This document shows positions 28,501 through 55,369 of a DNA stretch of 64,000 bases, one piece after another. The stretch is from Eledone cirrhosa (taxonomy: Eukaryota), in assembly GCA_964016885.1 (NCBI GenBank), contig OZ024765.1, positions 13,392,001 to 13,456,000 of the forward strand. The letters run 5' to 3'. Under the pieces are notes generated by a model. It had not been told where the DNA came from. It saw only the letters and a program-made list of their open reading frames with translations, and did not search any database. A program made the translations under genes and the position numbers. Numbering within the stretch: the first letter of the stretch is position 1; the number at the start of each line of letters is the position of its first letter.

Positions 28501-31500
28501 CACCAACAACACCAACACCACAACAACCACACCAACACCACCAACCCAACCACCACAACAACACCACCAACACCACCAACCCAACCACCACACCAACAAC
28601 ACCAACACCACAACAACCACACCAACACCACCAACCCAACCACCACACCAACACCACCAACACCACCAACCCAACCACCACAACAACAACCACACCAACA
28701 CCACCACAACAACAACCACACCAACACCACCAACCCAACCACCACAACAACACCACCAACACCACCAACCCAACCACCACAACACCACCAACACCACCAA
28801 CCCAACCACCACAACACCACCACCAACACCACCAACCCAACCACCACAACACCACCAACCCAACCACCACAACAACAACCACACCAACGCCACCAACCCA
28901 ACCACCACAACAACCACACCAACACCACCAACCCAACCACCACGACAACCACACCAACACCACCAACCCAACCACCACAACAACAACCACACCAACACCA
29001 CCAACCCAACCACCACAACAACCACACCAACACCACCAACCCAACCACCACGACAACCACACCAACACCACCAACCCAACCACCACAACAACAACCACAC
29101 CAACACCACCAACCCAACCACCACAACAACCACACCAACACCACCAACCCATCCACCACAACAACCACACCAACACCACCAACCCAACCACCACAACAAC
29201 AACCACACCAACACCACCAACCCAACCACCACAACAACCACACCAACGCCACCAACCCAACCACCACAACAACCACACCAACGCCACCAACCCAACCACC
29301 ACGACAACCACACCAACACCACCAACCCAACCACCACAACAACAACCACACCAACACCACCAACCCAACCACCACAACAACCACACCAACGCCACCAACC
29401 CAACCACCACGACAACAACCACACCAACACCACCAACCCAACCACCACAACAACCACACCAACGCCACCAACCCAACCACCACAACAACAACCACACCAA
29501 CGCCACCAACCCAACCACCACAACAACCACACCAACGCCACCAACCCAACCACCACAACAACCACACCAACACCACCAACCCATCCACCACAACAACCAC
29601 ACCAACACCACCAACCCAACCACCACAACAACAACCACACCAACACCACCAACCCAACCACCACAACAACCACACCAACGCCACCAACCCAACCACCACA
29701 ACAACCACACCAACGCCACCAACCCAACCACCACGACAACCACACCAACACCACCAACCCAACCACCACAACAACAACCACACCAACACCACCAACCCAA
29801 CCACCACAACAACCACACCAACGCCACCAACCCAACCACCACAACAACAACCACACCAACGCCACCAACCCAACCACCACGACAACCACACCAACACCAC
29901 CAACCCAACCACCACAACAACCACACCAACACCACCAACCCAACCACCACAACAACCACACCAACGCCACCAACCCAACCACCACGACAACAACCACACC
30001 AACGCCACCAACCCAACCACCACGACAACCACACCAACACCACCAACCCAACCACCACAACAACCACACCAACACCACCAACCCAACCACCACAACAACC
30101 ACACCAACACCACCAACCCAACCACCACAACAACAACCACACCAACGCCACCAACCCAACCACCACGACAACCACACCAACACCACCAACCCAACCACCA
30201 CAACAACCACACCAACACCACCAACCCAACCACCACAACAACCACAACAACACCACCAACCCAACCACCACAACAACCCCACCAACCTAACCACCACCAC
30301 AACCACACCAACACCACCAACACGACCACCACAACAACCACACCAACACCACCAACCCAACCACCACGACAACCACACCAACACCACCAACCCAACCACC
30401 ACAACAACCACACCAACACCACCAACCCAACCACCACGACAACCACACCAACACCACCAACCCAACCACCACGACAACCACACCAACACCACCAACACGA
30501 CCACCACAACAACCACAACAACACCACCAACCCAACCACCACGACAACCACACCAACACCACCAACCCAACCACCACCACAACCACACCAACACCACCAA
30601 CCCAACCACCACAACAACAACCACACCAACGCCACCAACCCAACCACCACCACAACCACACCAACACCACCAACACGACCACCACAACAACCACACCAAC
30701 ACCACCAACCCAACCACCACGACAACCACACCAACACCACCAACCCAACCACCACAACAACCACACCAACACCACCAACCCAACCACCACGACAACCACA
30801 CCAACACCACCAACCCAACCACCACGACAACCACACCAACACCACCAACACGACCACCACAACAACCACAACAACACCACCAACCCAACCACCACGACAA
30901 CCACACCAACACCACCAACCCAACCACCACCACAACCACACCAACACCACCAACCCAACCACCACAACAACAACCACACCAACGCCACCAACCCAACCAC
31001 CACCACAACCACACCAACACCACCAACCCAACCACCACAACAACAACCACAACAACACCACCAACCCAACCACCACGACAACCACACCAACACCACCAAC
31101 CCAACCACCACGACAACCACACCAACACCACCAACCCAACCACCACCACAACCACACCAACACCACCAACCCAACCACCACAACAACAACCACACCAACA
31201 CCACCAACCCAACCACCACGACAACCACACCAACACCACCAACACGACCACCACAACAACCACAACAACACCACCAACCCAACCACCACGACAACCACAC
31301 CAACACCACCAACCCAACCACCACCACAACCACACCAACACAACCAACCCAACCACCACCACAACCACACCAACACCACCAACCCAACCACCACGACAAC
31401 CACACCAACACCACCAACCCAACCACCACGACAACCACACCAACACCACCAACCCAACCACCACCACAACCACACCAACACCACCAACCCAACCACCACA

Positions 31501-34500
31501 ACAACAACCACACCAACGCCACCAACCCAACCACCACGACAACCACACCAACACCACCAACACGACCACCACAACAACCACAACAACACCACCAACCCAA
31601 CCACCACGACAACCACACCAACACCACCAACCCAACCACCACCACAACCACACCAACACCACCAACCCAACCACCACAACAACAACCACACCAACACCAC
31701 CAACCCAACCACCACGACAACCACACCAACACCACCAACACGACCACCACAACAACCACAACAACACCACCAACCCAACCACCACGACAACCACACCAAC
31801 ACCACCAACCCAACCACCACCACAACCACACCAACACCACCAACCCAACCACCACCACAACCACACCAACACCACCAACCCAACCACCACGACAACCACA
31901 CCAACACCACCAACCCAACCACCACGACAACCACACCAACACCACCAACCCAACCACCACCACAACCACACCAACACCACCAACCCAACCACCACAACAA
32001 CAACCACACCAACGCCACCAACCCAACCACCACAACAACCACACCAACACCACCAACCCAACCACCACCACAACCACACCAACACCACCAACCCAACCAC
32101 CACGACAACCACACCAACACCACCAACCCAACCACCACGACAACCACACCAACACCACCAACCCATCCACCACAACAACCACACCAACACCACCAACCCA
32201 ACCACCACAACAACAACCACACCAACGCCACCAACCCAACCACCACAACAACCACACCAACACCACCAACCCAACCACCACAACAACAACCACACCAACA
32301 CCACCAACCCAACCACCACAACAACCACACCAACACCACCAACCCAACCACCACAACAACCACACCAACACCACCAACCCAACCACCACAACAACAACCA
32401 CACCAACGCCACCAACCCAACCACCACAACAACCACACCAACACCACCAACCCAACCACCACGACAACCACACCAACACCACCAACACGACCACCACAAC
32501 AACCACAACAACACCACCAACCCAACCACCACGACAACCACACCAACACCACCAACCCAACCACCACCACAACCACACCAACACCACCAACCCAACCACC
32601 ACAACAACAACCACAACAACACCACCAACCCAACCACCACGACAACCACACCAACACCACCAACCCAACCACCACAACAACAACCACACCAACACCACCA
32701 ACCCAACCACCACAACAACCACACCAACACCACCAACCCAACCACCACAACAACCACACCAACACCACCAACCCAACCACCACAACAACAACCACACCAA
32801 CACCACCAACCCAACCACCACAACAACCACACCAACACCACCAACCCAACCACCACGACAACCACACCAACACCACCAACCCAACCACCACAACAACAAC
32901 CACACCAACACCACCAACCCAACCACCACAACAACCACACCAACACCACCAACCCAACCACCACAACAACCACACCAACACCACCAACCCAACCACCACA
33001 ACAACAACCACACCAACACCACCAACCCAACCACCACAACAACCACACCAACACCACCAACCCAACCACCACAACAACCACACCAACACCACCAACCCAA
33101 CCACCACAACAACAACCACACCAACGCCACCAACCCAACCACCACAACAACCACACCAACGCCACCAACCCAACCACCACGACAACCACACCAACACCAC
33201 CAACCCAACCACCACAACAACAACCACACCAACACCACCAACCCAACCACCACAACAACCACAACAACACCACCAACCCAACCACCACAACAACCCCACC
33301 AACCTAACCACCACCACAACCACACCAACACCACCAACACGACCACCACAACAACCACACCAACACCACCAACCCAACCACCACGACAACCACACCAACA
33401 CCACCAACCCAACCACCACGACAACCACACCAACACCACCAACACGACCACCACAACAACCACAACAACACCACCAACCCAACCACCACGACAACCACAC
33501 CAACACCACCAACCCAACCACCACGACAACCACACCAACACCACCAACCCAACCACCACGACAACCACACCAACACCACCAACCCAACCACCACGACAAC
33601 CACACCAACACCACCAACACGACCACCACAACAACCACAACAACACCACCAACCCAACCACCACCACAACCACACCAACACCACCAACACGACCACCACA
33701 ACAACCACACCAACACCACCAACCCAACCACCACGACAACCACACCAACACCACCAACCCAACCACCACGACAACCACACCAACACCACCAACCCAACCA
33801 CCACAACAACCACACCAACACAACCAACCCAACCACCACGACAACCACACCAACACCACCAACCCAACCACCACAACAACAACCACACCAACACCACCAA
33901 CCCAACCACCACGACAACCACACCAACACCACCAACCCAACCACCACGACAACCACACCAACGCCACCAACCCAACCACCACGACAACCACACCAACACC
34001 ACCAACCCAACCACCACAACACCACCAACACCACCAACCCAACCACCACAACAACACCACCAACACAACCAACCCAACCACCACAACACCACCAACACCA
34101 CCAACCCAACCACCACAACAACACCACCAACACCACCAACCCAACCACCACAACAACACCACCAACACCACCAACCCAACCACCACACCAACACCACCAA
34201 CCCAACCACCACAACAACACCACCAACACCACCAACCCAACCACCACAACAACACCACCAACCCAACCACCACCACAACCACACCAACACCAACAACCCA
34301 ACCACCACAACAACACCACCAACCCAACCACCACCACAACCACACCAACACCACCAACCCAACCACCACAACAACACCACCAACACCACCAACCCAACCA
34401 CCACCACAACAACCACACCAACACCACCACAACAACACCACCAACACCACTACAACAACAACCACACCAACACCACCAACCCAACCACCACAACAACACC

Positions 34501-35815
34501 ACCAACCCAACCACCACACCAACACCACCAACCCAACCACCACAACAACACCACCAACACCACCAACCCAACCACCACCACAACAACACCACCAACACCA
34601 CCAACCCAACCACCACAACAACAACCACACCAACACCACCACAACAACACCACCAACACCACTACAACAACAACCACACCAACACCACCAACCCAACCAC
34701 CACAACAACACCACCAACCCAACCACCACAACAACCACACCAACACCACCAACACGACCACCACACCAACACCACCAACCCAACCACCACAACAACACCA
34801 CCAACCCAACCACCACACCAACACCACCAACACGACCACCACACCAACACCACCAACCCAACCACCACAACAACACCACCAACCCAACCACCACAACAAC
34901 ACCACCAACCCAACCACCACAACAACACCACCAACACCACAGCTAAACAGAACAGCTACAACAATAGAATCACTACCATCACCAACACCACCACAACAAC
35001 AACCACACCAACACCACCAACCCAACCACCACAACAACACCACCAACCCAACCACCACCACAACACCACCAACCCAACCACCACAACAACACCACCAACC
35101 CAACCACCACAACAACACCACCAACCCAACCACCACAACAACACCACCAACCCAACCACCACAACAACACCACCAACCCAACCACCACCACAACCACACC
35201 AACACCACCAACCCAACCACCACCACAACCACACCAACACCACCAACACGACCACCACAACAACACCACCAACCCAACCACCACAACAACACCACCAACC
35301 CAACCACCACAACAACACCACCAACCCAACCACCACAACAACACCACCAACCCAACCACCACCACAACCACACCAACACCACCAACCCAACCACCACCAC
35401 AACCACACCAACACCACCAACACGACCACCACAACAACACCACCAACCCAACCACCACAACAACACCACCAACCCAACCACCACAACAACACCACCAACC
35501 CAACCACCACAACAACACCACCAACCCAACCACCACCACAACCACACCAACACCACCAACACGACCACCACAACAACACCACCAACCCAACCACCACAAC
35601 AACACCACCAACCCAACCACCACAACAACACCACCAACCCAACCACCACCACAACCACACCAACACCACCAACACGACCACCACAACAACACCACCAACA
35701 CGACCACCACAACAACACCACCAACCCAACCACCACAACAACACCACCAACACCACAGCTAAACAGAACAGCTACAACAATAGAATCACTACCATCACCA
35801 ACACCACCAACAACA
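25590..35815. repeat. 10.2-kb C/A-rich minisatellite (mainly 35/38-bp units) filling protease intron 2
   Basis: Unit caccaccaacccaaccaccacaacaaccacaccaa. Almost no G or T on the + strand. Confidence 0.97.
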
Positions 35816-35840: not shown

Positions 35841-35965
35841 AAACCATGGACCTAAGAAGATTTCTGCCCACTTTGGTTCTGTCAATACAATCCAGATGCC
35901 AATACAGATTCCTGTAGACAATTACACAATGCATGAAGACTTTGTCCGCAGAAGAAAGTATCTTT
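35841..35965 (+). CDS. S1A serine protease exon 3
   Basis: ttccag|...|gtgagt. Encodes NHGPKKISAHFGSVNTIQMPIQIPVDNYTMHEDFVRRRKYL. Phases 2/1 join exons 2 and 4 without stops. Confidence 0.88.
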
Positions 35966-36454
35966 GTGAGTATTATAACACACACACACACACACACATA
36001 TATATCATCATCATTATCGCTTAACATCCATCTTCCACGCTAGTATGGGTTAGACGGGTTTGTCCCATTTAGAGGCAAGTTGGGTCGGGTGACCGTATCT
36101 CGCTCATACAGAACTGTCTCTGGCAGATTTTCTATGGCTGGATGCCCTTCCTAACACCAACCATATTTATAGTGTGGACTGGGAGCCTTTTTACTGTGTC
36201 TCCTACACGACCACTTTATAGTGTGGACTAGGTGCTTTTTGTTGTGTCTCCTACAGAACCACTTTACAGAGCGGACTGGGTTTTTTTTGTATTGACACCT
36301 ACACGACCAGTTTACAGTGTGGACTGGATGTTCTGTGGTATCAACATAACTTTCAGTATATTTATATATATGCTAGTTAGTTTGAATTGGCTCCCCACAA
36401 GCTCAAAGAGGTGTAGTCCCTTTTTTCTCACACACGAACATATATATATATATA

Positions 36455-36890
36455 TATGTATATAAAAGGTAAACAGAAATAACAACACAATTGGTACAGT
36501 ATATGGAAGGGATATATTAGGTTAACGCTTGATATAGCAGGAAGAGGGTATTAACGTTTTGGATGCTAGTCCTTCATCAGAAGAAAGAATGAGAAATACG
36601 ATAGATTGAGAGGATGGGCGGGATGGAATTGGAAAAAATATCTTTAGATAAAAATAACAGATCCATTGGCTGGGCTCCCACCCAGCTCAAGAAAGTGAGA
36701 TCCCTTTTCTTAAACACACACATATAAATATATATACTAGCTAGGTAGCTTTGTTCACTCTTTGTTGGCTCAACTCCCTTAGAATGTAAGAAGTTAAAGG
36801 CTGAAACACTTGTCTGAGAGGGGGGCGGGAAACTTCTCCGAAGACCTTTTTCTATCAAGTTCTCTCTCTTAACAGAGTTTTTAATAGTTT
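36455..36890 (-). mobile_element. second copy of the Penelope-like repeat with a mutated hammerhead (GAAA->AAAA)
   Basis: 36460-36640 aligns with 18315-18495. Core reads CTGATGA-A-GGACTAGCATCC-AAAA-CGTT. Confidence 0.6.
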
Positions 36891-37500
36891 CTAACACATG
36901 TTCACTATCTGTTTATTGTCTAACAGTGACACCATATTGTCTCTAACACATGTTCACTATCTGTTTATTGTCTAACAGTGACACCATATTGTCTCTAACA
37001 CATGTTCACTATCTGTTTATTGTCTAACAGTGACACCATATTGTCTCTAACACATGTTCACTACCTGTTTATTGTTAACAGTAAACAGTGACACCATATT
37101 GTGTCTCTAACACATGTTCACTACCTGTTTATTGTTAACAGTAAACAGTGACACCATATTGTGTCTCTAACACATGTTCACTACCTGTTTATTGTTAACA
37201 GTAAACAGTGATACCATATTGTGTCTCTAACACATGTTCACTACCTGTTTATTGTTAACAGTAAACAGTGATACCATATTGTGTCTCTAACACATGTTCA
37301 CCACCTGTTTATTGTTTAACAGTAAACAGTGACACCATATTGTGTCTCTAACACATGTTCACTACCTGTTTATTGTTTAACAGTAAACAGTGACACCATA
37401 TTGTGTCTCTAACACATGTTCACTACCTGTTTATTGTTAACAGTAAACAGTGATACCATATTGTGTCTCTAACATCTGTTCACCATCTGTTTATTGTCCC
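36890..37500. repeat. 52-61-bp minisatellite homologous to the exon 4 acceptor and exon start
   Basis: Unit tgttcactacctgtttattgttaacagtaaacagtgacaccatattg vs junction tgttcaccatctgtttattgtcccacag|tgaacgatgtggccatattg. Confidence 0.85.
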
Positions 37501-37504
37501 ACAG

Positions 37505-37636
37505 TGAACGATGTGGCCATATTGAAGCTGAGAGAAGCAGTGAACATCAGTGAGTGTATAAAACCAATACCCCTGGCCACACAACAACACTACTACCAGG
37601 GACAATGTATTGTGGCAGGTTGGGGTGTGAAAACAT
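37505..37636 (+). CDS. S1A serine protease exon 4 (catalytic Asp)
   Basis: cccacag|...|gtaagt. Encodes (L)NDVAILKLREAVNISECIKPIPLATQQHYYQGQCIVAGWGVKT, with NDIALLKL-like and GWG motifs. Confidence 0.93.
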
Positions 37637-39464: not shown

Positions 39465-40390
39465 CTGTATATAGCTATGGTGTGGCCACACTTAGAATTT
39501 GCATCACCAATCTGGAACCCCTATCGTGCTCAGAACATTGACTGCCTGGGAGCTGTTCAGAGACGTGCAACCAAGCGAATACCCTCCATCAGGCATCTAC
39601 CATACTCTGAACGCCTTGCTTCCCTGGGCATGGATATATTGAAGCTCCGACATCTCGCAACTGACTTGGTAAACAACCACAAAATTATTAACCATCTTGC
39701 CAACAACAACCCTGAGCACCTTTTTGATTTCCATGTGTCTAACACACGTGGGTATGCCTACAAAGTCAGAAAATAGCACAGCTCCCATGACTTTCGGAAA
39801 GATTTTTTGATGCTCAGAGTTGTTGAAGCATGGAACAAACTCCCTGCATCAGTTGTTAGCTGTCGAGACACTGCATCCTTTAAAACCTCCATGGAACAAA
39901 CAACCTGCATCAGTTATTAGCTGTCGAGACACTGCATCCTTTAAAACCTCCATGGAACAAACTCCCTGCATCAGTTATTAGCTGTTGAGACACTGCATCC
40001 TTTAAAACCTCCATGGAACAAACTACCTGCATCAGTTGTTAGCTGTCGAGACACTGAATCCTTTAAAACCTCCATGGAACAAATTCCCTGCATCAGTTAT
40101 TAGCTGTTGAGACACTGCATCCTTTAAAACCTCCATGGAACAAACTCCCTGCATCAGTTGTTAGCTGCCAAGACACTGCATCCTTTAAAACCTCCATGCT
40201 TCCTGAAATTCGCCAACACTACACCTGATATTCCCCCTCCATACACACGTACACATGTATTTCATGACTCATATACTATTCACTTCCCTGATATTTGTAT
40301 ATTATTCTATGTACTATACATGCACCTTTGATGAGTTGTAGTGCACCTGAGCACTGTACACAATCATTTCATTATTATTATTATTATTAT
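39465..40390 (+). mobile_element. CR1-type LINE 3' end with ~6x61-bp internal array and (ATT)n tail
   Basis: VWPHLEFASPIWNPY...AVQRRATKRIP...LPYSERLASLG...NTRG; 3' stem-loop tgtagtgcacctgagcactgtaca. Tail-only copies at ~2318-2538, 23790-23930 and 43505-43635. Confidence 0.85.
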
Positions 40391-41032: not shown

Positions 41033-41175
41033 ATTTTGGTCCTTTATCAACAAGGTTACACTACACTGCTCTACCTATTGTACCTCTGAAACACTGCCAA
41101 GCCCTTAGTCCATATCTTCAGGATCAACATCTCTGTGCTGGGGAATTAAGGCCTGATGGTAGGACAACCTGTAAG
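41033..41175 (+). CDS. S1A serine protease exon 5
   Basis: ttccacag|...|gtaaga. Encodes (Y)FGPLSTRLHYTALPIVPLKHCQALSPYLQDQHLCAGELRPDGRTTCK, with the LCAG motif. Phases 1/0. Confidence 0.92.
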
Positions 41176-41944: not shown

Positions 41945-43490
41945 CATTTTTTCACGCTCAGAGTTGCTGATGCATGGATCAAACTCCCTGCATCAGTTGT
42001 TAGCTGTCGAGACACTGCATCCTTTAAAACCTCCATGGATCAAACTCCCTGCATCAGTTGTTAGCTGTCGAGACACTGCATCCTTTAAAACCTCCATGGA
42101 ACAAACTACCTGCATCAGTTGTTAGCTGTCGAGACACTGCGTCCTTTAAAACCTCCATGGAATAAACTACCTGCATCAGTTGTTAGCTGTCGAGACACTG
42201 CATCCTTTAAAACCTCCATGGAACAAACTACCTGCATCAGTTGTTAGCTGTCGAGACACTGCATCCTTTAAAACCTCCATGGAACAAACTACCTGCTTCT
42301 GTTGTTAGCTGTCGAGACACTGCATCCTTTAAAACCTCCATGGAACAAACTACCTGCTTCAGTTGTTAGCTGTCGAGACACTGCATCCTTTAAAACATCC
42401 ATGGAACAAACTACCTGCATCAGTTGTTAGCTGTCGGGACACTGCATCCTTTAAAACATCCATGGAACAAACTACCTGCATCAGATGTTAGCTGTCGAGA
42501 TACTGCATCCTTTAAAACCTCCATGGAACAAACTACCTGCATCAGTTGTTAGCTGTCGAGACTGCATCCTTTAAAACCTCCATGGAACAAACTACCTGCT
42601 TCAGTTGTTAGCTGTCGAGACACTGCATCCTTTAAAACCTCCATGGAACAAACTACCTGCTTCAGTTGTTAGCTGTCGAGACACTGCATCCTTTAAAACC
42701 TCCATGGAACAAACTACTTGCATCAGTTGTTAGCTGTCGAGACACTGCATCCTTTAAAACCTCCATGGAACAAACTACCTGCTTCAGTTGTTAGCTGTCG
42801 AGACACTGCGTCCTTTAAAACCTCCATGGAATAAACTACCTGCATCAGTTGTTAGCTGTCGAGATACTGCATCCTTTAAAACCTCCATGGAACAAACTAC
42901 CTGCATCAGTTGTTAGCTGTCGAGATACTGCATCCTTTAAAACCTCCATGGAACAAACTACCTGCATCAGTTGTTAGCTGTCGAGACTGCATCCTTTAAA
43001 AGCTCCATGGAACAAACTACCTGCATCAGTTGTTAGCTGTCAAGACACTGCATCCTTTAAAACCTCCATGGAACAAACTACCTGCTTCAGTTGTTAGGTG
43101 TCGAGACACTGCATCCTTTAAAACATCCATGGAACAAACTACCTGCATCAGTTGTTAGCTGTCGGGACACTGCATCCTTTAAAACCTCCATGGAACAAAC
43201 TACCTGCATCAGTTGTTAGCTGTCGGGACACTGCATCCTTTAAAACATCCATGGAACAAACTACCTGCATCAGATGTTAGCTGTTGAGACACTGCATACT
43301 TTAAAACCTCCATGCTTCCTGAGATTTGCCAACACTACACCTAATATTCCCCCTCCATACACACGCACACATGTATATCATGAGTCATGCACTATTCACT
43401 TACCTGACATTTATACATTATTCTATGTACTATACATGCACTTTGATGAGTTGTGCACCTGAGCACTGTACACAATAATTTTCATTATAT
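41945..43490 (+). repeat. ~22x61-bp minisatellite within a CR1 3' end
   Basis: Unit catggaacaaactacctgcatcagttgttagctgtcgagacactgcatcctttaaaacctc, followed by the CR1 3'UTR. Confidence 0.9.
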
Positions 43491-43699: not shown

Positions 43700-43855
43700 G
43701 GAGATTCAGGAAGCCCCTTGATGTGTTTTGATGCCCAAAAGAAAGAAAGGGTTCTCGTAGGTATTGTATCCTATGGCTGGAAGTGTAAAACAGGGCTGTC
43801 TGTTTATGCCAGGGTATCGTACTTCAATAAATGGATCCTAAAACATATACAGTAA
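43700..43855 (+). CDS. S1A serine protease exon 6 (catalytic Ser, stop)
   Basis: tttttcag|GDSGSPLMCFDAQKKERVLVGIVSYGWKCKTGLSVYARVSYFNKWILKHIQ*, with GDSGxP, GIVSYG and VYARVS...WI motifs. The six exons total 963 nt = 320 aa + stop. Confidence 0.95.
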   Translation, partial: GDSGSPLMCFDAQKKERVLVGIVSYGWKCKTGLSVYARVSYFNKWILKHIQ

Positions 43856-43891: not shown

Positions 43892-44912
43892 CTCTTTAGC
43901 ATTTAAACCGGCCACATCTGGCCAGAATTCTCTCACCTTTTTCTCTTCAAACCAGCCGCTCATACTGATGTTAAGGTATTATTCTCAAAATAAATAATAT
44001 CAAAATTTCATAGATTCGATATTATGTGAGGTACAGCCTTTACTGTGAAAATACAATAGTATATATAGTGTAATGTAAACGTTATGTGAGATATTATGCG
44101 AGGTAAAGCCTTTACTGTGAAAATACAATAGTATATATAGAATAATGTAAATGTTATGTCAGATATTATGTGAGGTAAAGCCTCTACAGTGAAAATACAA
44201 TAGTATATATAAAGTAATGTAAATGTTATATGAGATATTATGTGAGGTAAAGCCTTTACTGTGAAAATACAATAGTATATATAGAGTAATGTAAATGTTA
44301 TGTGAGATATTATGTGAGGTAAAGCCTTTACTGTGAAAATACAATAGTATATATAGAGTAATGTAAATGTTATGTGAGATATTATGTGAGGTAAAGACTT
44401 TACTGTGAAAATACAATAGTATATATAGAGTAATGTAAATGTTATGTGAGATATTATGTGAGGTAAAGCCTTTACTGTGAAAATACAATAGTATATATAG
44501 AGTAATGTAAATGCTAAAGGGTTTAACCGGCTACATCCGGCTAGAATTCTTTAACCTCTTTCTCTTCAAACCGGCTGTAACTGGCCACTCATACTTATGT
44601 TAAGGTATTCTTGTCTAAATAAATATTATCAAAATCTCATAGATTTGATATTATGTGAAGTAAAGTCTTTTCTGCGAAAATATAACAGTATATATAGAAT
44701 AATGTAAATGCTAAAAGGTTAAACTGGCCACATCTGGCCAGAATTCTCTCACCTCTTCCTGTTCAAACCGGCTGCTCATACTGATGTTAAGGTATTTTTC
44801 TTAAAATAAATATCAAAATCTCATAGAATCAATAGTGTGAGATACTACGTGAGATAAAGGCTTCTCTGTGAAAATATAATATTATATATAGAGTAGTGTA
44901 AATGTTAAAGGG
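43892..44912 (-). mobile_element. three head-to-tail copies of the piggyBac-like MITE, the first with ~7x72-bp expansion
   Basis: TTAA|CTCTTTAGCATTTA start. TAAATGYTAAARGG-TTAA-like ends at ~44521, ~44718 and 44912. Reverse complement of the 15639 element. Confidence 0.75.
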
Positions 44913-53770: not shown

Positions 53771-55369
53771 CCGATACTGGCAAATTTATTTTAATGCATA
53801 TAAAAAAAAACATGTTGTGTATACATTTTTTGTATACACAACATTATATATATACACCCTCTATATATATTGTTATACTTTGGTAGAGTCATGTTGCCAA
53901 TAACAAACACACACACTTGTTAGGATTCACTTCAATTTATTATTGTAGTTTCCCTGTTGCTTCGTCTAATAACTGGATGGTTATTAGATGTCACTCAACA
54001 ACTATCATCATCACCATCATCACCATTATCACCACCACCATCACCACCATCATCATCACCACGATCACCACTCCTAACATCATCACCACCACCACCATCA
54101 TCACCACCACCATCATCCCCCCACCCTGCCCACCACCAACATCATCATCACCACCACCATCATCATCCCCACCACAATCCCCACCACCATCATCATCATC
54201 ACCACGACCATCATCATCCCCTCCCCAACACCATCACCACCACCATCATCATCACCACCATCATTATCACCACCACCACCTTAACCCCCCCCCCTCACCA
54301 CCATCGTCGTCATCAACATCATCTTCGTTTAATGTCCATTTTCCAATTTTAGCATGGGTTAGACAGATTGTCAAATTTTGCGACAAGTCTGGTTTGGAGA
54401 CCACGTCATGCTCATATAGATATGTATTTTGGCTTGGTTTCTACAGCTGAATGTCCTTCCTAACACCAACCACTTTACAGGGTGGACTGGGCGCTTTTTA
54501 TCATGGCAGCAGCACAACTATCTTACTGGGTGGATGAGAGTTTTGTTGTGTCACCAGCACAACTATTTGAAAGGATGGACTGGGTGCTTTTTATCATGTC
54601 ACCAGCACAACTATTTGACAGGGTGGATTGGGCAGTTTTTTATCATGTCACCAGCACAAACACTTATAAGATAGACTGGGTATTTTTGTCATGTTACCAG
54701 CACAACCACCTTACAGGGTGGACTGAATACATTTGCTTTTCAGTGTCACCAGCACAACCATTTGACAGGGTGGACTAGGTGTTTTTTATCATGTCACCAG
54801 CACGATCAATTTATAGGGCAACTTGGTATTTTTTGTCATGTCACTAGCACAACCAACTTACAGGGTGTACTGGGTGCTTTTTGAAATGTCACCAGCACAA
54901 CCACCTTACAGTGTGGACTGGGTATATTTTCTTTTCAGTGTCACCATCATGACCAGGTTACTGTGTGGGCTGGGCATTTTTTGCCAGGTTATTAGCCTTA
55001 CATGGTGGACTGGGCGCTTTTTGTCATGTCACCAGCATGATCACCCAACAGGGTGGTCAGGGCACTTTTTGTCGTGTCATTTGGACAAACGCCTTACAGG
55101 GTGTACTGGGTGCTTTTTGTTGTCTCACCAGTACAACCATTTGACAGGATGGACTGGGCGCCTTTTCTCATGTCACCAGCACGACAACTTTACATGGTGG
55201 ACTGAGTACATTTTTTTTTTTACGTGTCACCAACAAGAGCACTCTACGGAGTGGACTGGGTACTTTTTTGTCATGTCACCAGCACAACTACCCAACTAGG
55301 TACTTTTTTGTCATGTCACCTGTATGACCAAAAACCACCACAACAACAACAACAACAACAACAACAGCA

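What the first reader, a model, noticed from the sequence alone, without database searches (positions are those of the whole stretch)
36890..37525. Second exon-seeded minisatellite: repeats of the acceptor and catalytic-Asp codons of exon 4
Seen: ~10 units each carry a CTAAC branch-like motif, tgtttattgt, ACAG and a degenerate TGAACGATGTGGCCATATTG (taaacagtgacaccatattg). The real acceptor is effectively the last unit of the array. Two independent cases in one gene suggest a recurrent process that amplifies 3' splice junctions upstream into the intron (inference), and raise the question of how the spliceosome picks the last AG.
Basis: partly seen in the sequence, partly recalled or inferred. 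Interest (0 to 1): 0.7.

Follow-up and report, generated by a model that had tools for sequence, protein, structure and literature searches.

The report
Splice-acceptor "mirage" repeat in protease gene
The last 36 bases of an intron and the first 20 bases of the next exon of a chymotrypsin-like protease gene are echoed ten extra times inside that intron, a repeat type already known from lancelets; none of 261 other predicted exon starts sampled in this genome had such a copy, so it is likely a tolerated accident rather than a process aimed at splice sites.

Summary
Observation confirmed. 36890-37524 holds ten 52-61-nt units (92-100% alike) plus a diverged last unit spanning the exon-4 acceptor (AG|37505) of an S1A protease. 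All 19 paralogous exons examined have AG at this place and no upstream copy; the array is locus-specific. This is a 'mirage', described in amphioxus (PMC3087553). The scan has noted the same kind before, in this genome and others. The inferred acceptor-targeting process is not supported: 0 of 261 predicted acceptors carried an upstream junction copy, about 8-13 being expected from intronic rates, against 7 of 229 donors. Repeats run up to acceptors and stop. The splicing question is real: 8 of 10 homologous decoys score at least as well as the true acceptor; 16 of 17 array AGs lead to premature stops. No RNA was available. The gene may be under relaxed constraint (Ile16 activation motif lost). 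Ordinary, with one useful side result: a donor/acceptor asymmetry.

The parts
36890..37468 (+). Ten intronic repeat units (3 x 52, 5 x 60, 2 x 61 nt), each with CTAAC, a pyrimidine-rich stretch, one or two AGs and an exon-derived CCATATTG tail
37469..37524 (+). Diverged last unit = authentic junction: 36 nt of intron 3 plus 20 nt of exon 4
37469..37473 (+). CTAAC, likely branch point (A at -33), near the -35 to -26 peak of YTRAY motifs in 250 predicted acceptors
   Evidence: function inferred
37503..37504 (+). Authentic acceptor AG, at the same place (2 nt before the Asn/Tyr-Asp codons) in 19 of 19 paralogous exons
37449..37450 (+). Only decoy AG that gives an in-frame, stop-free extension (+54 nt, 18 aa); weak score (-1.3)
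37505..37636 (+). Exon 4 (NDVAILKL, catalytic Asp102 motif); strong donor GTAAGT (score 10.8)
35841..35965 (+). Exon 3 (predicted), phase-1 donor; intron 3 is 1539 nt
25398..25554 (+). Exon 2 (His57 motif TSAHC); RLDS where 38 of 42 paralog exons have [IV][IVL]x[GS]
24858..25361 (+). Exon-2-derived array (56-nt units, then 26-nt units), upstream of exon 2 and separated from the acceptor by about 36 nt
41033..41175 (+). Exon 5 (predicted)
43700..43855 (+). Exon 6 (GDSGSP, Ser195 motif) to the stop codon; PF00089 match; 61% identical to a bivalve chymotrypsin-1-like protein
13749..13804 (+). Candidate exon 1 (signal-peptide-like); as assembled it runs into a stop and into a dispersed 108-nt repeat, with no good donor
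   Evidence: identity as exon 1 is inferred

Best explanation
It is a locus-specific minisatellite of the 'mirage' type: a stretch of about 56 nt spanning the exon-4 acceptor was duplicated in tandem and amplified to ten extra copies, and the spliceosome likely still uses the last copy. Shown: unit structure, derivation from the junction, the ancestral acceptor position, locus specificity, and rarity of such copies at sampled acceptors. Inferred: amplification by slippage or unequal exchange (identical neighbouring units; the junction copy left out of homogenisation); choice of the last AG by exon definition with the strong exon-4 donor 132 nt away; removal of most mis-spliced transcripts by nonsense-mediated decay; survival helped by weakened constraint on this paralog. 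Arrays arise throughout the introns of this genome, and those crossing an acceptor are likely mostly purged.
For: Blocks of identical adjacent units; last unit 74-85% alike to the others, which are 92-100% alike. 19 of 19 paralogs share the AG position and none has an upstream copy. The array hits only itself in the genome search and 0 of 313 other loci. Junction copies at 0 of 249 acceptors; 13.0 expected (all intronic positions) or 7.9 (dispersed repeats removed), p = 1.5e-6 and 3e-4; after clustering at 80% identity 0 of 255, 8.5 expected, p = 1.8e-4. The positive control (this acceptor) was detected, score 50; cross-locus chance hits were 1 of 1431 and 1 of 608. About 8-11% of unique intronic 50-mers have an intron-side copy both near and far from exons. 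16 of 17 array AGs lead to stops. Amphioxus BflGb6 has the same anatomy with normal splicing suggested by RT-PCR (PMC3087553 section 16). Ile16 motif lost; exon 2 ranks 3rd and exon 6 6th from the bottom of 41 in mean identity to paralogs.
Against: No RNA was examined, so use of the last AG is inferred. Eight of 10 homologous decoys score 5.1-6.3 against 4.9 for the true acceptor (matrix trained on predicted, score-selected acceptors), so local sequence does not explain the choice. Exons 2-6 have no stop or frameshift and keep the catalytic triad motifs, which argues against much relaxation. The sample covers five Pfam families with predicted, not annotated, junctions. Earlier unchecked notes list several acceptor mirages in this genome, so they do recur at some low rate.
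Confidence: 0.8

Rival explanations
1. A mutational process tied to splicing or exon chromatin preferentially amplifies 3' splice junctions.
For: Two exon-derived upstream arrays in one gene. Array ends are about twice as frequent 45-120 nt from junctions as deeper in introns (49 loci against a mean of 25.1 of 256; permutation p = 5e-5). Earlier unchecked notes list other cases in this genome.
Against: 0 of 261 acceptors carry a junction copy and 0 of 260 an exon-edge copy. The pile-up of ends also occurs at donors (40 against 19.4 of 223) and is not matched by more copying: 8.4% near against 10.1% far for acceptors, as expected if exons act as barriers. A mutational bias hidden by selection cannot be excluded.
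Confidence: 0.07
2. The array acts as a copy-number dial: leaky use of decoys diverts transcripts to decay, or adds 18 residues before the catalytic Asp.
For: Decoys have CTAAC, a pyrimidine-rich stretch and AG, and score like the true site; one decoy is in frame. Human donor-side arrays in the 6-16 and CBS genes use neighbouring pseudo-sites (PMC1557585 passages).
Against: The in-frame decoy is weak (-1.3) and lies 7 nt behind a stronger AG; none of 19 paralogs has the array; amphioxus cases reportedly splice normally.
Confidence: 0.08
3. The gene is already dead or barely expressed, so the acceptor choice no longer matters.
For: RLDS replaces the Ile16 motif. The candidate exon 1 runs into a stop and a dispersed repeat, and no other signal-peptide exon was found in window 1-25300.
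Against: Exons 2-6 are open and phase-compatible, with triad motifs and GT/AG sites intact. The true exon 1 may lie outside the window. Non-activatable protease homologues can be functional (own knowledge).
Confidence: 0.25

Closest known systems
Amphioxus 'mirage' minisatellites (globin BflGb6, BflGb9; Adh3; troponin C; PGBD5). PMC3087553: passages and section 16 read. PMC3902484: one passage read. Canestro 2002 (PMC117041): not held, known only through those citations.
   Same: Tandem units made of the 3' end of an intron plus the 5' part of the next exon (BflGb6); many units keep AG; concerted evolution inside the array with a boundary unit left out.
   Different: Mollusc-type genome; unit 52-61 nt (BflGb6 150-160, Adh3 10-72); 10 extra copies against 3-6 units; splicing and length polymorphism are not shown here.
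Human junction-spanning VNTRs: F7 intron 7 (37 bp), 6-16, CBS intron 13, lamin B2, PDGF intron 4 (PMC1557585, passages read)
   Same: The first element spans an exon-intron boundary, repeats the splice site, and the exon-proximal site is preferred.
   Different: Those repeat donors downstream of the exon; this repeats an acceptor with its branch-like motif upstream.
S1A chymotrypsin-like serine proteases (Pfam PF00089)
   Same: His57, Asp102 and Ser195 motifs; intron position before the Asp102 exon shared with 19 paralogs.
   Different: The Ile16 activation motif is replaced by RLDS; exon 1 is uncertain.

Membership tests
Mirage minisatellite | Head-to-tail tandem array whose unit spans an exon-intron boundary | tested here: met
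Mirage minisatellite | The authentic junction is the boundary unit and the copies lie in the intron | tested here: met
   19 of 19 paralogs fix the AG at 37503-37504
Mirage minisatellite | Locus-specific origin, not a dispersed repeat | tested here: met
   self hits only (with that tool's caveat on skipped words); 0 of 313 loci
Mirage minisatellite | Internal homogenisation with the boundary unit excluded | tested here: met
   92-100% among ten units, 74-85% to the last
Mirage minisatellite | Normal splicing despite cryptic sites | not testable with these tools
   no RNA run could be laid; frame and paralog evidence only
Mirage minisatellite | Length instability between alleles or cells | not testable with these tools
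   short-read contigs of one sample collapse the array
   0 of 249-261 against 3.2-5.2%
S1A protease | His/Asp/Ser triad motifs | tested here: met
   TSAHC, NDVAIL, GDSGSP; PF00089 match on exon 6
S1A protease | Ile16-type N-terminus for activation | tested here: not met
   RLDS; 38 of 42 paralog exons match [IV][IVL]x[GS]

The most novel reading that the evidence does not exclude
Acceptors, unlike donors, are a near-absolute barrier to tandem duplication in this genome (0 of 261 against 7 of 229) because upstream decoy acceptors really are used; this array is then a rare survivor whose decoys bleed transcripts into nonsense-mediated decay in proportion to copy number, a mutable dimmer helping to switch off a protease paralog that has lost its activation motif.
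Probability: 0.1. Interest if true: 0.5.

Novelty: new member of a known kind. Interest (0 to 1): 0.2.

Why it matters
The locus itself is ordinary for a repeat-rich invertebrate genome. Its value is as a natural test of 3' splice-site choice among ten near-equal acceptors, the mirror of the human F7 donor case. The sampled donor/acceptor asymmetry, if it holds on an annotated genome, would put a number on the cost of an upstream decoy acceptor and show that mirages are survivors, not targets. Five literature searches (listings only) showed no cephalopod mirage report or such an asymmetry test, but most subscription papers and all supplements went unseen.

Tried and rejected
RNA: no RNA holder listed; this says nothing about expression. 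Laying the two DNA runs on the candidate exon 1 gave no cover beyond 13705, uninformative. Protein search with exon 2 found nothing; exon 6 found one bivalve protein. Assembly artefact: rejected for the junction. Transposon-borne satellite: rejected for both exon-derived arrays (0 of 313 loci), whereas the 48-, 61- and 108-nt arrays of the window are dispersed families (73, 17 and 8 of 313 loci). I first took the 108-nt array (13805-15638) for a third, donor-seeded case; rejected. TRF alone found 1 junction-spanning array (a donor) in 215 loci, so I changed to direct alignment with positive controls. A hotspot near exons: the pile-up of array ends is not matched by more copying, so I read it as a barrier effect. 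CTAAC as a special motif: 13 occurrences in the last 60 nt of 250 predicted acceptors, with no positional peak. Canestro 2002 could not be read.

Full report
Setting. The window is G000:C26:13392001-13456000 of a 3.0-Gb assembly and is rich in tandem repeats (118 TRF rows). It holds a plus-strand S1A protease gene with predicted exons 25398-25554 (TSAHC), 35841-35965, 37505-37636 (NDVAILKL), 41033-41175 and 43700-43855 (GDSGSP), all GT/AG and phase-compatible (the script's end coordinates were one or two bases long and were corrected from the printed boundaries). The only named protein hit is a bivalve chymotrypsin-1-like protein, 61% identical to exon 6. That the animal is an octopod comes from earlier AI notes and my recall; I did not test it.

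The array. Ten units precede the exon: three identical 52-mers, then 60, 60, 60, 60, 61, 61 and 60 nt, followed by a diverged unit made of the last 36 nt of intron 3 and the first 20 nt of exon 4. The ten are 92-100% alike and 74-85% alike to the last. Against a 61-mer the junction matches 29 of 36 intronic and 14 of 20 exonic bases without gaps (shuffle p = 3e-5). A short-read contig covers 37445-37787 without differences (one sample, perhaps the assembly's own).

Direction of copying. Of 38 matches to exon 4 in the genome, the 19 best paralogs were inspected: all have AG two bases before the Asn/Tyr-Asp codons and none has an upstream copy at the threshold. The boundary is therefore older than the array. 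The array matches only itself in the genome search and none of 313 other loci. A second array (24858-25361) derives from the first 60 or so bases of exon 2 (score 67, shuffle maximum 34 of 2000) and is also locus-specific, but about 36 nt of unique intron separate it from the acceptor.

Is there a process aimed at acceptors? I took 360 exon loci from the 454 match rows of five Pfam searches (trypsin, kinase, P450, myosin, AMP-binding) and later added 19 paralog exons. Junctions were predicted, not annotated. Dropped before counting: junction scores under 6, matches of 600 nt or more, donors of last trypsin exons, duplicates, and low-complexity 50-mers. The test asks whether the 50-mer centred on a junction has a copy within 450 nt on the intron side; the null is the same geometry at intronic positions 150-1000 nt away. 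The window's exon-4 acceptor was detected (score 50), and cross-locus chance hits were 1 of 1431 and 1 of 608. Acceptors: 0 of 249, against 193 of 3686 intronic positions (13.0 expected, p = 1.5e-6) or 78 of 2444 without dispersed repeats (7.9 expected, p = 3e-4); 0 of 261 in the enlarged set; 0 of 255 after clustering at 80% identity. Donors: 7 of 214, near expectation (8.0 or 4.2); at the stricter threshold 2 of 214 against 7.2 or 4.0 expected. Acceptors against donors: 0 of 261 and 7 of 229, Fisher p = 0.005. I inspected 5 of the 7 donor hits and found 4 convincing; with 4, p = 0.047. An exon-edge test, which detects the exon-2 array, gave 0 of 260 acceptors and 2 of 229 donors, both below the intronic rate. 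The 95% upper bound for acceptors is about 1.1% (rule of three), which still allows many cases genome-wide and fits the several unchecked earlier notes on this genome. So mirages recur but are not enriched. One result pointed the other way: array ends are about twice as common 45-120 nt from junctions (49 against 25.1 of 256 acceptor loci; 40 against 19.4 of 223 donor loci). But the share of unique positions with any intron-side copy is similar near and far (8.4 and 10.1% for acceptors, 11.3 and 8.2% for donors), which is what a barrier at the exon would give. Null positions within a locus are not independent, so the p-values are approximate.

How the last AG is chosen. There are 17 AGs in the array. 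All but one lead to a stop; the AG before 37451 adds 18 codons in frame. With a matrix trained on 250 predicted acceptors, the true site scores 4.9, the ten homologous decoys 3.2-6.3 (eight at 5.1 or more) and the seven secondary AGs -1.3 to 0.0. Each decoy has its own CTAAC, so scanning from a branch point does not settle the choice. The likely answer, from established splicing knowledge and untested here, is exon definition with the strong exon-4 donor (score 10.8), with nonsense-mediated decay removing errors, since any stop would lie upstream of two further junctions. No RNA could be laid.

Why it survived here. Exon 2 has RLDS where 38 of 42 paralog exons have an Ile16-type start (the other four were partly cut by my window or are near-variants), and exons 2 and 6 rank 3rd and 6th from the bottom of 41 in mean identity. 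The candidate exon 1 at 13749 runs into a stop and into a dispersed 108-nt repeat, and no other signal-peptide exon was found upstream in the window. Against decay, exons 2-6 are open with intact triad motifs. Relaxed constraint is plausible, not shown; whether exon 1 is truly broken stays open.

What is known. Amphioxus mirages have this anatomy: BflGb6 repeats the 3' end of an intron plus the 5' part of exon 2, shows concerted evolution with a boundary unit excluded, and RT-PCR suggests normal splicing (PMC3087553, passages and section 16); PGBD5, Adh and troponin C are similar (PMC3902484, one passage). Human donor-side cases are F7, 6-16, CBS, lamin B2 and PDGF (PMC1557585, passages). I reached the mirage reading from these papers before the look-ups; the scan's earlier notes on this and other genomes agree and are not counted as support. 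Verdict: a real feature, a new member of a known kind, low interest; the sampled donor/acceptor asymmetry is the part worth following.

Noticed in passing
window 25660-35751: A 10-kb array (35-nt period, about 288 copies) almost free of G and T on the + strand fills intron 2 of the protease gene; it starts about 35 nt after the exon-2 donor.
   Followed up: no
window 13805-15638: 108-nt x 17 array starting at the 3' end of the candidate exon 1; a dispersed family (8 of 313 loci), also near an exon of a paralog on C26 (L142, L304).
   Followed up: partly
window 25042-25361: 26-nt units derived from the exon-2 array carry AG followed by GTAAG/GTCAG/GTGAG; four AGs of the exon-2 array score 6.6-7.0, above the true exon-2 acceptor at 6.1.
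   Followed up: partly
L200 (G000:C1:322457484-322460690): A MAP-kinase-like exon: a degenerate array 250-680 nt downstream repeats the exon end plus donor, a donor-side mirage detached from its exon.
   Followed up: partly
L203 (C25), L229 (C18), L113 (C3): Single or short tandem duplications of exon end plus donor (97 nt in a P450 gene; about 80 nt and 24 nt in myosin genes).
   Followed up: partly
L296 (G000:C2:189921096-189924257): A stretch resembling the end of a kinase exon (HRDLK region) recurs about 90 nt after its donor; possibly a duplicated exon fragment.
   Followed up: no
sampled loci genome-wide: Ends of tandem copies pile up 45-120 nt from both acceptors and donors at about twice the deep-intron rate, and the rate is higher on contigs C13-27 (7.7%) than elsewhere (3.5%).
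   Followed up: partly
window 39829-40198 and 41973-43314; 4852-5157, 22913-23428, 36166-36327, 54467-55288; 101-1398 and 44018-44513: Arrays of 61, 48 and 72 nt each recur within the window; the 61- and 48-nt units are dispersed families (17 and 73 of 313 loci).
   Followed up: partly
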